Positions 39,937-41,894 of a stretch of DNA of 64,000 nucleotides are shown here, one piece after another. Numbering within the stretch: position 1 is the first letter of the stretch; the number at the start of each line of letters is the position of its first letter. The DNA comes from Escherichia coli (lineage in GTDB: Bacteria > Pseudomonadota > Gammaproteobacteria > Enterobacterales > Enterobacteriaceae), in assembly GCF_003991155.1 (NCBI RefSeq), contig NZ_CP031293.1. One strand, written 5' to 3'. The notes under the pieces are model-generated. The model was given only the letters and a program-made list of their open reading frames with translations. It did not search any database and was not told the DNA's origin. Position numbers and translations under genes: made by a program.

Positions 39937-40646
39937 AAATCGAACTGACGGTGAATGGACTAAAGGTACAGGCGCAGTACTCTGATGATGAAATTGAAAA
40001 TGTACATAAACCATTGCTGCGTATGCTGGCGGCCTTACAGACAGTAAATCCGCAGCGGCGTACGGTGGTTTTTCTTTGCGCTCCGCCGGGGACGGGTAAA
40101 TCTACCCTAACCACCTTCTGGGAATATCTCGCGCAACAAGACCCGGAACTGCCCGCTATTCAGACGCTGCCGATGGATGGTTTTCACCATTACAATAGCT
40201 GGCTGGATGTGCATCAATTGCGACCCTTCAAAGGCGCACCAGAGACATTCAACGTTGCGAAACTGGCGGAAAATCTGTGCCGGGTTGTGGAAGGGGATTG
40301 TACGTGGCCGCAGTACGATCGACAAAAGCATGATCCTGTTGAAGATGTGTTGCACGTTACCGCACCACTTGTCATCGTCGAAGGAAACTGGTTGTTGTTG
40401 GACGACGAGAAGTGGTGCCAGCTTGCGCAATTTTGTGATTTCTCGATCTTTATCAAAGCTCCCGCATCTGCGTTGCGGGAGCGTCTGGTGGGGCGCAAGC
40501 TGGCGGGAGGGTTATCGCTGGCAGACGCAGAAGCCTTTTATGACCGTACCGACGGGCCGAATGTTCGCCGGGTGCTGGAAGAGAGTCTGCCTGCAAATTT
40601 GACCTTAATGATGACCGCTACGGGTGAATATCGTCTGATGGATTAA
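39933..40646 (+). CDS. yggC: P-loop nucleoside/pantothenate-kinase-like protein YggC
   Basis: 237 aa; Walker A 'CAPPGTGKSTL'. Confidence 0.85.
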   Translation: MKIELTVNGLKVQAQYSDDEIENVHKPLLRMLAALQTVNPQRRTVVFLCAPPGTGKSTLTTFWEYLAQQDPELPAIQTLPMDGFHHYNSWLDVHQLRPFKGAPETFNVAKLAENLCRVVEGDCTWPQYDRQKHDPVEDVLHVTAPLVIVEGNWLLLDDEKWCQLAQFCDFSIFIKAPASALRERLVGRKLAGGLSLADAEAFYDRTDGPNVRRVLEESLPANLTLMMTATGEYRLMD

Positions 40647-41250
40647 CGTTCCTGATTACACCATCTTCCAGTCGCACCACACGAGAGAAATGACGCCGGG
40701 TAAATGCGGCGTCATGACTGATTGCTACGACGCTCGTGCCTCGCTGGCGGCACTTTTCCAGCCAGCTTTCAAACACGCTCAACCAATTTTCGTCAAAATC
40801 CCGACTCGGCTCGTCCAGTAGCAATAGGGGTGGAGAGAGTGCTTCCAGGCTGGCGACGGCGACCATCCGTCGCTGCGCACTATGCAGATCTAACGGATGC
40901 GCGCTGGCAGTGTCTGCTAACTGGCAGCATTGCAGGGCAGCATTGGTACGTTGAGTGATTTCATCCGCCGGGCATTTTTGCAGTTTCAAACCAAATGCGA
41001 TCTCGTCAGCAACAGTGCTGTGAAAAAGCTGGTTTTCCGCGTCCTGAAACAGTACGCCAATCTTTGCCGCGCGCTGGCGGTTTTTCAGGTTTTTCATCGC
41101 TTGTTGTTGCAGCATAACCGTACCGGCTGTGGGCGTAAGAAGACCTGCCATTACTCGTAACAGCGTCGATTTTCCCGCGCCAGGCCAGCGATAAGATATC
41201 TGATTTAACGTTAACATAGTGGCTGGAGCGCTCCGTTTTGCAATTGCCAC
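40618..41250 (-). CDS. ABC-type ATPase, degenerate second domain/subunit of an ECF transporter (possibly a frameshifted fusion with the upstream ATPase)
   Basis: Walker A remnant 'PGAGKSTLL', Q-loop 'VLFQDAENQ', degenerate signature 'HSAQRRM', Walker B 'LLLLDEPS', H-loop 'ISHD'; N-terminus shorter than a canonical ABC domain; 40-nt out-of-frame overlap with the upstream ATPase ORF. Confidence 0.7.
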   Translation of the reverse strand: MAIAKRSAPATMLTLNQISYRWPGAGKSTLLRVMAGLLTPTAGTVMLQQQAMKNLKNRQRAAKIGVLFQDAENQLFHSTVADEIAFGLKLQKCPADEITQRTNAALQCCQLADTASAHPLDLHSAQRRMVAVASLEALSPPLLLLDEPSRDFDENWLSVFESWLEKCRQRGTSVVAISHDAAFTRRHFSRVVRLEDGVIRNVNPSDDIHP

Positions 41251-41894
41251 GCTTGCTGGCAGTGGTTCAGGAAAGGTGTGTGATGACGTTCAAAAAGAAT
41301 AATCAGCGAACCACGTTCAAGCGCCCAGTGTTGTAAGCGCTGCAACAGCATTTCGCGGGCCTGCGGCGTCAGGCGGCTAAAGGCTTCATCAAGAATTAAG
41401 AGCTTTGGCTGCATCGCGATGGCGCAGGCGATGACCACACGCTGTGTCTCTCCACCGGAGAGTGTTGCCGGGTGACGATGGCGCAACGACTGGCACTCGG
41501 TCAGGGCCAGGGCGGCGTCAATCCGCGCCATAATCTCTTTTTCAGCAAGACACAGATTTTCTGGCCCAAAGGCAACTTCTTCTTCCACGCTAAAGGTACA
41601 GCCGGAGAGCTGCAAATAGGGCGATTGCTGGACGAGCTGGATGGTGGCGGATTGTTCATTAAGCGGGAGACGCCCAATGGGCGTACCGAGAAGCGTCCCC
41701 GTGCCGGTTATCTCTCCTGGTAGAAAGTCCGGATACCAGCCCGCCATCAGCTGCGCCAGCGTACTTTTGCCACTGCCGTTGTCACCAAAGATGGCGACCA
41801 TCCCCGGTTTGACATAGTGAAAGTCATAACAGAACGGAGGATGCGTTGAGTGTGTCGGGCAATAGCGAAACTGTTCTAACGTAACCATATCCAC
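41211..41894 (-). CDS. ABC-type ATPase (ECF transporter A component)
   Basis: Walker A 'GDNGSGKST', Q-loop 'LVQQSP', signature 'LSGGETQRV', Walker B 'LLILDEAF'. Confidence 0.85.
   Translation of the reverse strand: MDMVTLEQFRYCPTHSTHPPFCYDFHYVKPGMVAIFGDNGSGKSTLAQLMAGWYPDFLPGEITGTGTLLGTPIGRLPLNEQSATIQLVQQSPYLQLSGCTFSVEEEVAFGPENLCLAEKEIMARIDAALALTECQSLRHRHPATLSGGETQRVVIACAIAMQPKLLILDEAFSRLTPQAREMLLQRLQHWALERGSLIILFERHHTPFLNHCQQAWQLQNGALQPLC

What the first reader, a model, noticed from the sequence alone, without database searches (positions are those of the whole stretch)
40618..41894. Two overlapping ABC-ATPase ORFs that may be a frameshifted fused double ATPase
The ORFs at 41211-41894 and 40618-41250 overlap by 40 nt in different frames. 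The downstream one has a truncated N-terminus (only about 17 residues before a Walker A remnant PGAGKSTLL) and a degenerate signature motif (HSAQRRM). This fits either a naturally asymmetric A/A' pair or a YkoD-like fused duplicated ATPase that has suffered a frameshift or small deletion, which would inactivate the transporter.
Basis: seen in the sequence. Interest (0 to 1): 0.4.

Follow-up and report, generated by a model that had tools for sequence, protein, structure and literature searches.

The report
In-frame deletion in ECF transporter ATPase
The two overlapping ORFs are a normal pair of separate ATPase genes of an accessory E. coli vitamin-type (ECF) importer, but in this strain's lineage the second gene has lost 26 codons, including its ATP-binding loop, through a small repeat-mediated deletion, so this is ordinary gene decay.

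Summary
The window is E. coli, and on the minus strand it carries a five-gene cassette next to epd: PPC-domain protein, ECF S component, ECF T component, ATPase A and ATPase A'. The 40-nt overlap is an ORF-calling artefact. The real A' start is the ATG at 41217, which gives a 7-nt stop/start overlap (ATGTTAA). That overlap is conserved in E. coli, Salmonella, Klebsiella, Atlantibacter and a more distant relative, so A/A' is a genuine split pair and not a frameshifted fusion.

The degenerate signature (LH[S/T/A]AQRRM) is natural and conserved across genera. It pairs with a conserved loss of the H-loop histidine in A, which gives one degenerate and one consensus ATP site.

The short N-terminus is a lesion. 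An in-frame 78-bp deletion lies between two 8-bp direct repeats (TGGCGCGG). It removes strands β2 and β3 and the first Walker A glycine of A', the subunit that supplies the consensus site.

The deletion occurs in 9 of 3318 locus-bearing complete E. coli genomes. All carriers checked have the identical allele, and the exact protein is on 223 public contigs, so it is clonal and not an assembly error. Loss of transporter function is very likely but is inferred. Interest is low.

The parts
43185..43616 (-). First gene of the cassette: PPC/PCC-domain (DUF296) protein, 143 aa, function unknown
   Evidence: Pfam PF03479 E=2e-27. It matches PDB 2HX0/2NMU 'putative DNA-binding protein' at E=4e-69. It lies directly upstream of the S gene in all 7 loci examined.
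42584..43162 (-). ECF transporter S (substrate-capture) component, 192 aa, substrate unknown
   Evidence: Pfam ECF_trnsprt 34.6 bits, above the 30.7 cutoff. The best NCBIfam hit is the CD3073-family S component, 136 bits, below the 180 cutoff. The protein is identical (WP_000113903.1) in carriers and in intact strains. No PDB relative by sequence.
41876..42583 (-). ECF T (transmembrane coupling) component, 235 aa
   Evidence: Pfam CbiQ E=1e-4, 22.3 bits, just below the 25 cutoff. RefSeq names it EcfT. The sequence contains 'QRARG' and 'AVRG...MRAF' motifs resembling coupling helices, read directly. It overlaps the A start by 13 nt.
41211..41888 (-). ATPase A, 225 aa, intact. It has canonical Walker A (GDNGSGKST), signature LSGGE (41448-41462) and Walker B (LDE). 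The H-loop His is replaced by Glu in 'FER' (41286-41294) and the D-loop is SRLT.
   Evidence: Pfam ABC_tran E=1e-21. The best NCBIfam hit is ECF_ATPase_1. FER is invariant in 5 genera. E200 aligns with the H-loop His of pgp-1.
40618..41217 (-). ATPase A' deletion allele, 199 aa instead of 225 (RefSeq WP_023152185.1). It lacks residues 13-38 of the intact protein.
   Evidence: Protein and DNA alignments to PMV-1 and O157 alleles. Annotated at 600 nt versus 678 nt. The exact protein is on 223 contigs.
41211..41217 (-). 7-nt A-stop/A'-start overlap (ATGTTAA), consistent with translational coupling
   Evidence: The same 7-nt overlap occurs in E. coli, Salmonella, Klebsiella, Atlantibacter and L018.
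41175..41182 (-). Deletion junction: the single retained copy of the 8-bp direct repeat TGGCGCGG. Intact alleles have two copies 78 bp apart.
   Evidence: A 40-nt junction probe hits 9 genomes only.
41164..41181 (-). Walker A remnant GAGKST. The first Gly of GxxGxGKST is lost, leaving RWPGAGKST.
   Evidence: The AF2 model of the truncated allele has residues 1-14 at pLDDT below 50.
40873..40887 (-). Naturally degenerate ABC signature LHSAQ (canonical form is LSGGQ)
   Evidence: It aligns to LSGGQ of ABCB4. It is conserved as LH[S/T/A]AQ or LHAGQ in all orthologues.

Best explanation
The region encodes the two separate ATPase subunits (A and A') of a dedicated ECF-type ABC importer, in the cassette PPC-S-T-A-A' beside epd. 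This accessory locus is present in about 61% of complete E. coli genomes. The pair is asymmetric by design. A' carries a degenerate signature and A lacks the H-loop histidine, so the ATP site built from A's Walker A and A' signature is degenerate. The site built from A' Walker A/B/H-loop and A's LSGGE is the only consensus, presumably catalytic, site. In the lineage sampled by the window, an in-frame 78-bp deletion between two 8-bp direct repeats (TGGCGCGG) removed A' residues 13-38. The likely mechanism is replication slippage or microhomology-mediated deletion. The lost residues include strand β2, the core strand β3 that leads into the P-loop, and the first Walker A glycine. The deletion therefore hits the one consensus site and most likely abolishes ATP-driven transport, leaving an unflagged pseudogene. 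What is shown: the deletion, its repeat-flanked junction, its clonality, the conservation of the split arrangement and the conservation of the asymmetric motifs. What is inferred: the slippage mechanism, which site is catalytic, and loss of function.
For: The 78-bp gap and the flanking TGGCGCGG repeats are seen. The junction probe hits 9 genomes and the interior probe hits 3309, which sums to all 3318 locus-bearing genomes. The carriers are the window's nearest relatives over 25 kb. They share the identical A' protein, and their T-A-A' DNA differs by 0-1 nt against 12-13 nt to PMV-1. The exact 199-aa protein is on 223 contigs. The 26 deleted residues are conserved in every orthologue. The AF2 model of intact A' (pLDDT 85) places β2 at 18-25, β3 at 31-35 and the P-loop helix at 39-49. 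The truncated model has a disordered N-terminus. The split A/A' arrangement with a 7-nt overlap is conserved across genera. The degenerate signature is conserved, and the FER substitution at the H-loop of A is conserved. Among 143 fused relatives the C-half signature is canonical in only 37. In those relatives the C-half Walker B and H-loop are canonical in 143 and 140 respectively. From established knowledge of ABC dimers, each ATP is sandwiched between the Walker A of one NBD and the signature of the other. Heterodimers with one degenerate site are reviewed in PMC3971661.
Against: There are no functional data: loss of transport, protein instability and which site hydrolyses ATP are all inferred from motifs. 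RefSeq does not flag the allele as a pseudogene. The rest of the operon is intact in carriers, and the allele has spread across five countries and three host species. This shows only that the lesion is tolerated, not that the protein is dead. AlphaFold does not predict stability. The motif survey is biased because the hits were selected by similarity to A'.
Confidence: 0.85

Rival explanations
1. The two ORFs are halves of a once-fused (YkoD-like) double ATPase gene that was split by a recent frameshift or small indel at the junction.
For: A fused orthologue exists elsewhere. P0152 (503 aa) has an N-half 53% identical to A and a C-half 54% identical to A', and it sits in the same PPC-S-T context. 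Most of the next-best relatives are two-domain proteins.
Against: All 3318 E. coli loci, plus Salmonella, Klebsiella, Atlantibacter, Citrobacter-type proteins and L018, have two genes of about 225 aa. They share the same 7-nt ATG/stop overlap and lack any linker. The junction DNA in the window is identical to that of intact strains. The fused form has a linker of about 55 aa that is absent here.
Confidence: 0.03
2. The short N-terminus is a natural feature of a regulatory or structural A' subunit that no longer needs to bind ATP, so the transporter in this strain is fully functional.
For: A' already has a degenerate signature. The allele persists in a globally distributed lineage, with the rest of the operon intact.
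Against: Every orthologue outside the 9-genome clone keeps the 26 residues and a canonical GDNGAGKST P-loop, Walker B DE and H-loop His. In an ABC dimer the degenerate signature of A' disables the other site, the one using A's Walker A, not A' own P-loop. A' therefore supplies the only consensus site. The deletion bears the mark of a mutational accident, being flanked by direct repeats.
Confidence: 0.07
3. The 78-bp gap is a sequencing or assembly artefact in the window's source genome.
For: A short in-frame gap between direct repeats could in principle arise from mis-assembly.
Against: The identical junction is in 9 independently sequenced complete genomes from different laboratories and countries. 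The exact protein is on 223 contigs from NCBI, ENA and Logan.
Confidence: 0.01
4. The deletion was positively selected, as an adaptive loss of import, rather than being neutral decay.
For: A' carries other independent lesions in E. coli: a W31 TGG>TAG nonsense mutation (47 member sequences in its 90% protein cluster) and an in-frame 57-bp deletion of the signature. The whole locus is absent from about 39% of complete genomes.
Against: The same pattern is expected for a dispensable accessory gene under relaxed selection. The frequency is only 9 of 3318. There are no phenotype data.
Confidence: 0.04

Closest known systems
Group I (dedicated) ECF transporters with an EcfA/EcfA' heterodimer, e.g. 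L. brevis EcfAA'T (PDB 4HUQ) and CbiMNQO/CbiO
   Same: It has an S component (PF12822), a CbiQ-like T component and two ABC ATPases encoded in one operon. The best PDB ATPase relatives include EcfA1/EcfA2 and CbiO.
   Different: The ATPases score far below the NCBIfam equivalog cutoffs (about 140 against 315-330 bits). They lack the C-terminal extension of classical EcfA proteins (225 aa against about 280). The cassette carries an obligately linked PPC-domain gene. The pair has one built-in degenerate ATP site. The substrate is unknown; the 'cobalt, cbiQ-O2' label in the E. coli W genome paper rests on annotation only.
Fused duplicated ECF ATPases (YkoD-type)
   Same: The closest non-enterobacterial relatives include two-NBD fusions, and P0152 is a fused orthologue in the same PPC-S-T context. 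The asymmetry is shared, with a degenerate C-half signature and an often degenerate N-half H-loop.
   Different: Here, and throughout the Enterobacteriaceae, the two NBDs are separate genes with a 7-nt overlap and no linker. Identity with YkoD itself was not tested.
Heterodimeric ABC transporters with one consensus and one degenerate nucleotide-binding site (TM287/288, TAP1/2, CFTR-type asymmetry)
   Same: A non-canonical signature in one NBD is combined with a non-canonical H-loop and D-loop in the partner, so that one composite site is degenerate and the other canonical (review PMC3971661).
   Different: Those examples are exporters. The review describes such combinations as frequent in exporters, whereas this is an ECF-type importer. 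No biochemistry is available for this system.
Repeat-mediated (slipped-misalignment) deletions that create in-frame pseudogenes in bacteria
   Same: The deletion endpoints fall on an exact 8-bp direct repeat, and one copy is retained.
   Different: Nothing unusual. The mechanism is inferred from the junction structure and was not observed.

Membership tests
ECF-type ABC importer (S-T-A-A' module) | S component of the ECF_trnsprt family | tested here: met
   PF12822 scores 34.6 bits, above the 30.7 cutoff. The NCBIfam CD3073-family S model is the best hit, but at 136 bits it is below the 180 cutoff.
ECF-type ABC importer (S-T-A-A' module) | EcfT/CbiQ transmembrane coupling component | tested here: inconclusive
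   PF02361 CbiQ scores 22.3 bits, below the 25 cutoff, E=1e-4. There is no NCBIfam hit. RefSeq names it EcfT. Its position, size and Arg-Gly motifs are consistent.
ECF-type ABC importer (S-T-A-A' module) | Two ABC ATPase subunits co-encoded with S and T | tested here: met
   PF00005 matches both ORFs. The top NCBIfam hits are ECF_ATPase_1/2, both below the equivalog cutoffs. The operon order is conserved in 7 loci.
ECF-type ABC importer (S-T-A-A' module) | ATP-dependent substrate uptake | not testable with these tools
   The substrate is unknown. No riboswitch or Rfam element was found upstream.
Frameshifted fused (YkoD-like) double ATPase | Closest orthologues encode both NBDs in one ORF | tested here: not met
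   There are two genes in E. coli (3318 genomes), Salmonella, Klebsiella, Atlantibacter and L018/L019. Only the distant P0152 is fused.
Frameshifted fused (YkoD-like) double ATPase | An indel at the A/A' junction relative to intact relatives | tested here: not met
   The junction DNA is identical to intact strains, and the only indel is the in-frame 78 bp inside A'.
ABC heterodimer with one degenerate and one consensus ATP site | Non-canonical signature in one NBD, conserved across orthologues | tested here: met
   LH[S/T/A]AQ or LHAGQ replaces LSGGQ.
ABC heterodimer with one degenerate and one consensus ATP site | Non-canonical catalytic residues in the partner NBD of the same composite site | tested here: met
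   In A the H-loop His is replaced by Glu (FER, invariant) and the D-loop is SRLT.
ABC heterodimer with one degenerate and one consensus ATP site | The second site is fully canonical | tested here: not met
   It is canonical in intact alleles (A' GDNGAGKST, LDE, SHD plus A's LSGGE). In the window the A' Walker A and its feeding strand are deleted.
ABC heterodimer with one degenerate and one consensus ATP site | Asymmetric ATP hydrolysis shown biochemically | not testable with these tools
   No experimental data were found.
Direct-repeat-mediated deletion | Ancestral sequence has identical short repeats at both breakpoints, and the derived allele keeps one copy | tested here: met
   TGGCGCGG occurs twice, 78 bp apart, in PMV-1. 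A single copy remains at window 41175-41182.

The most novel reading that the evidence does not exclude
The PPC-S-T-A-A' cassette may be an uncharacterised ECF-importer subfamily in which a PPC/DUF296 protein is an obligate partner and the ATPase dimer works with a single catalytic site. On that reading the repeated hits on A' in E. coli could reflect selection to switch this importer off in some lineages rather than neutral decay. Those hits are the Δ78 clone, a W31 stop, a Δ57 deletion and whole-locus loss in 39% of genomes.
Probability: 0.12. Interest if true: 0.4.

Novelty: new member of a known kind. Interest (0 to 1): 0.15.

Why it matters
It matters mainly for annotation. RefSeq lists the 199-aa product as an ordinary ABC ATP-binding protein, but it is most likely a non-functional in-frame deletion allele. 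Metabolic or transport reconstructions for this ExPEC-like lineage should not count the importer as active. The 78-bp deletion is also a clean clonal marker. At the family level, the cassette is an uncharacterised ECF importer with a built-in degenerate ATP site and a linked PPC-domain protein. That could be worth a modest follow-up, but nothing here is surprising to a specialist.

Tried and rejected
- An Rfam scan of 39000-45000 at permissive E-value looked for a riboswitch that might reveal the substrate. It returned only a chance IRES hit.
- The promoter and terminator consensus scan of 40300-44000 found nothing above shuffled expectation.
- Literature searches for the locus, CD3073 and DUF296+ECF returned only the E. 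coli W genome paper. [quoted passage not shown]
- A sequence search of the S component against the PDB gave no hit.
- AlphaFold of the truncated allele gave a disordered N-terminus and lower confidence (78 against 85). I do not treat this as proof of instability.
- I considered and rejected assembly error, a recent frameshift of a fused gene, and the upstream GTG at 41250 as the true start. That extension is not used by RefSeq, whereas the ATG and the 7-nt overlap are conserved.
- I checked whether the carriers' A' shows extra decay. There are only two derived amino-acid changes, one of them E to D at an otherwise invariant Q-loop-adjacent Glu, which is too few to interpret.

Full report
**1. 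Checking the observation**

The ORF list for 37000-46000 shows the two minus-strand ORFs at 41211-41894 and 40618-41250. They overlap by 40 nt in different frames, as described. Both contain an ABC_tran domain. For the downstream ORF the Pfam match starts only at profile position 21, so its N-terminus is indeed short. The strings PGAGKSTLL and HSAQRRM are present.

The neighbouring genes on the same strand are as follows.
- A CbiQ-like T component at 41876-42583.
- An ECF S component at 42584-43162.
- A PPC-domain protein at 43185-43616.
- yggC converges on the 3' end of the cassette, and epd-pgk lie beyond the PPC gene.

**2. Identity of the sequence and the true gene boundaries**

The 3.5-kb locus is 100% identical to E. 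coli FDAARGOS_1284. A locus covering at least 80% of the query is present in 3318 of 5426 complete E. coli genomes, and K-12 lacks it.

RefSeq annotation places the A' start at the ATG at 41217. A and A' then overlap by 7 nt (ATGTTAA) rather than 40 nt. The 40-nt figure comes from an upstream in-frame GTG.

The same 7-nt overlap is annotated in PMV-1 and O157:H7. It is also seen in gene calls for Salmonella, Klebsiella, Atlantibacter and a more distant genome, L018. A' homologues from Escherichia, Citrobacter, Salmonella, Klebsiella, Leclercia and Atlantibacter are all single-domain proteins of about 215-229 aa. The split A/A' arrangement is therefore ancestral for this group. There is no frameshift.

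**3. The lesion**

In almost all other strains the matched region is 78 bp longer: 3579 bp against 3501 bp, in two BLAST pieces. A' is 678 nt (225 aa) in those strains, against 600 nt (199 aa) in the window.

Protein alignment shows that the window lacks residues 13-38, GAATDCLCDISLQLKQGEWLALTGDN. DNA alignment shows a clean 78-bp gap. In the intact PMV-1 allele the gap is bounded by two exact copies of TGGCGCGG, 78 bp apart. The window keeps one copy at 41175-41182. This is the classic footprint of a slipped-misalignment or microhomology-mediated deletion. The mechanism is an inference.

**4. Frequency, clonality and artefact check**

- A 40-nt probe that can match only across the junction hits 9 genomes.
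- A 70-nt probe from inside the deleted segment hits 3309 genomes.
- The two counts sum to 3318, which is exactly the set of locus-bearing genomes.
- The nine carriers are also the window's closest relatives over 25 kb, at 99.6-100% identity. UPEC 536- and F11-like strains with intact genes come next, at 99.3%.
- The six carriers inspected come from the USA, Switzerland, China, Australia and Brazil, and from human, chicken and dog hosts. All encode the identical A' protein WP_023152185.1.
- The carriers' T-A-A' DNA differs by 0-1 nt from one another, against 12-13 nt to PMV-1.
- The exact 199-aa sequence occurs on 223 public contigs.

The deletion is therefore real, arose once and is inherited clonally. 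S, T and PPC proteins in carriers are identical to those of intact strains, so the event is recent relative to the operon's divergence.

**5. What the deletion removes**

An AlphaFold model of the intact protein (pLDDT 85) has β1 at residues 2-10, β2 at 18-25, β3 at 31-35 and the P-loop helix at 39-49. The deletion removes β2, the core strand β3 that feeds the P-loop, and the first glycine of GDNGAGKST. What remains is RWPGAGKST.

The deleted residues are conserved in every orthologue. A model of the truncated allele has lower confidence (78), with residues 1-14 below pLDDT 50. This is only weak evidence, because AlphaFold is not a stability predictor.

**6. The degenerate signature is natural and part of a built-in asymmetry**

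LHSAQ aligns with LSGGQ of ABCB4. It is conserved as LH[S/T/A]AQRRM in all enterobacterial orthologues, and as LHAGQRRM in more distant ones.

The partner A has canonical Walker A, LSGGE and Walker B motifs. In place of the H-loop histidine, however, it has an invariant Phe-Glu-Arg, and its D-loop reads SRLT.

In ABC dimers each ATP lies between the Walker A of one subunit and the signature of the other (established knowledge; review PMC3971661). Two conclusions follow.
- The site made of A's P-loop and A' signature is degenerate on both sides.
- The site made of A' P-loop, Walker B and H-loop together with A's LSGGE is the only consensus site.

The deletion therefore hits the subunit that supplies the consensus site. 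This is why I infer loss of function, at roughly 0.75-0.8 confidence for that step.

**7. Wider family**

An exhaustive representative search found two more distant split relatives, P0151 (57% identical) and P0154 (55%). It also found a fused 503-aa protein, P0152.
- The N-half of P0152 is 53% identical to A, and keeps FER and LSGGE.
- Its C-half is 54% identical to A', and keeps LHAGQRRM.
- The two halves are joined by a linker of about 55 aa.

P0152 sits in the same PPC-S-T context. The split relatives also sit in PPC-S-T-A-A' cassettes, at unrelated genomic positions. The cassette, including the PPC gene, is thus a conserved unit, and both fused and split forms exist in the family.

I surveyed the motifs of 143 two-domain hits.

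| Motif | N-half canonical | C-half canonical |
|---|---|---|
| Signature LSGG[QE] | 114 of 143 | 37 of 143 |
| Walker B (DE) | 124 of 143 | 143 of 143 |
| H-loop His | 104 of 143 | 140 of 143 |

The same direction of asymmetry is therefore common among relatives. The caveat is that these hits were selected by similarity to A'.

**8. Comparison with known systems**

This is an ECF-type importer of unknown substrate. [quoted passage not shown]
- The ATPases resemble EcfA1/EcfA2 and CbiO, but score far below the equivalog cutoffs.
- The S component is nearest the CD3073 family, below its cutoff.
- The PPC protein corresponds to PDB 2HX0/2NMU, which has no known function.
- No riboswitch was detected.

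One-degenerate-site ABC heterodimers are well known among exporters. Seeing this pattern in an ECF-type importer is a modest curiosity.

**9. Verdict**

The two-ORF layout and the degenerate signature are natural. The truncated N-terminus is a clonal, repeat-mediated in-frame deletion that most probably inactivates an accessory, frequently lost transporter.

Other independent A' lesions in E. coli fit relaxed selection on this locus. They are a W31 stop codon and a 57-bp in-frame deletion of the signature. In addition, K-12-type genomes have about 3.2 kb of this region replaced by 132 bp.

This is ordinary gene decay, and interest is low. Its main value is as an annotation correction and a lineage marker.

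Noticed in passing
window 33304-34580: The window carries an IS110-family element of about 1277-1279 bp, with a 326-aa DEDD transposase at 33407-34387 (-). It lies between tkt and a prohibitin-family gene, next to a REP-like sequence, with a 2-bp duplication at the junction. It is absent from the otherwise near-identical (1 mismatch in ~23.7 kb) FDAARGOS_1284. Its size and REP target resemble IS621, but that comparison is from memory and was not verified.
   Followed up: partly
window 39090-39278: yggF (GlpX-type class II fructose-1,6-bisphosphatase) is reduced to a 62-aa N-terminal fragment. RefSeq flags it as a pseudogene in FDAARGOS_1284 and also in PMV-1. It is intact (about 323 aa) in Salmonella and Atlantibacter. 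This lesion is therefore broader than, and separate from, the A' deletion clone.
   Followed up: partly
L007 19938-21032 (FDAARGOS_1284; roughly window 51200-52300): RefSeq annotates remnants of the scpA/sbm to scpC region as partial pseudogenes: methylmalonyl-CoA mutase and acetyl-CoA hydrolase fragments. This suggests another deletion in the lineage.
   Followed up: no
L014 1404-1520 and L015 1840-1930: Two other independent A' lesions occur in E. coli. One is a W31 TGG>TAG nonsense allele (P0012, a 90% cluster of 47 member sequences). The other is an in-frame 57-bp deletion that removes the signature motif and part of the following helix (P0007). A 179-aa C-terminally truncated form (P0016, a cluster of 71 member sequences) was not examined.
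   Followed up: partly
window 40578-43766 versus L013 (MG1655): In K-12 the whole cassette plus the yggC 3' end (3189 bp) is replaced by 132 unrelated bp. The rest of yggC is only 87% identical to the window, which is unusually divergent for an E. coli chromosomal gene. epd upstream is 95% identical. This suggests two old haplotypes of the region.
   Followed up: partly
window 40618-40646: The 3' ends of A' (-) and yggC (+) overlap convergently by 29 nt. Similar convergent overlaps of 32 and 44 nt occur in Salmonella and Atlantibacter.
   Followed up: no
L017 2681-4192: A fused A-A' orthologue (503 aa, linker of about 55 aa) lies in a PPC-S-T context on a short metagenomic contig from an unidentified organism. 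Whether fusion or fission is ancestral is unknown.
   Followed up: partly
window 41041-41043 (A' residue 59 of the truncated allele): The carriers' A' has Asp where all other orthologues examined have an invariant Glu next to the Q-loop Gln (FQEAENQ changed to FQDAENQ). This could be a hitch-hiking change or one that arose after inactivation.
   Followed up: no
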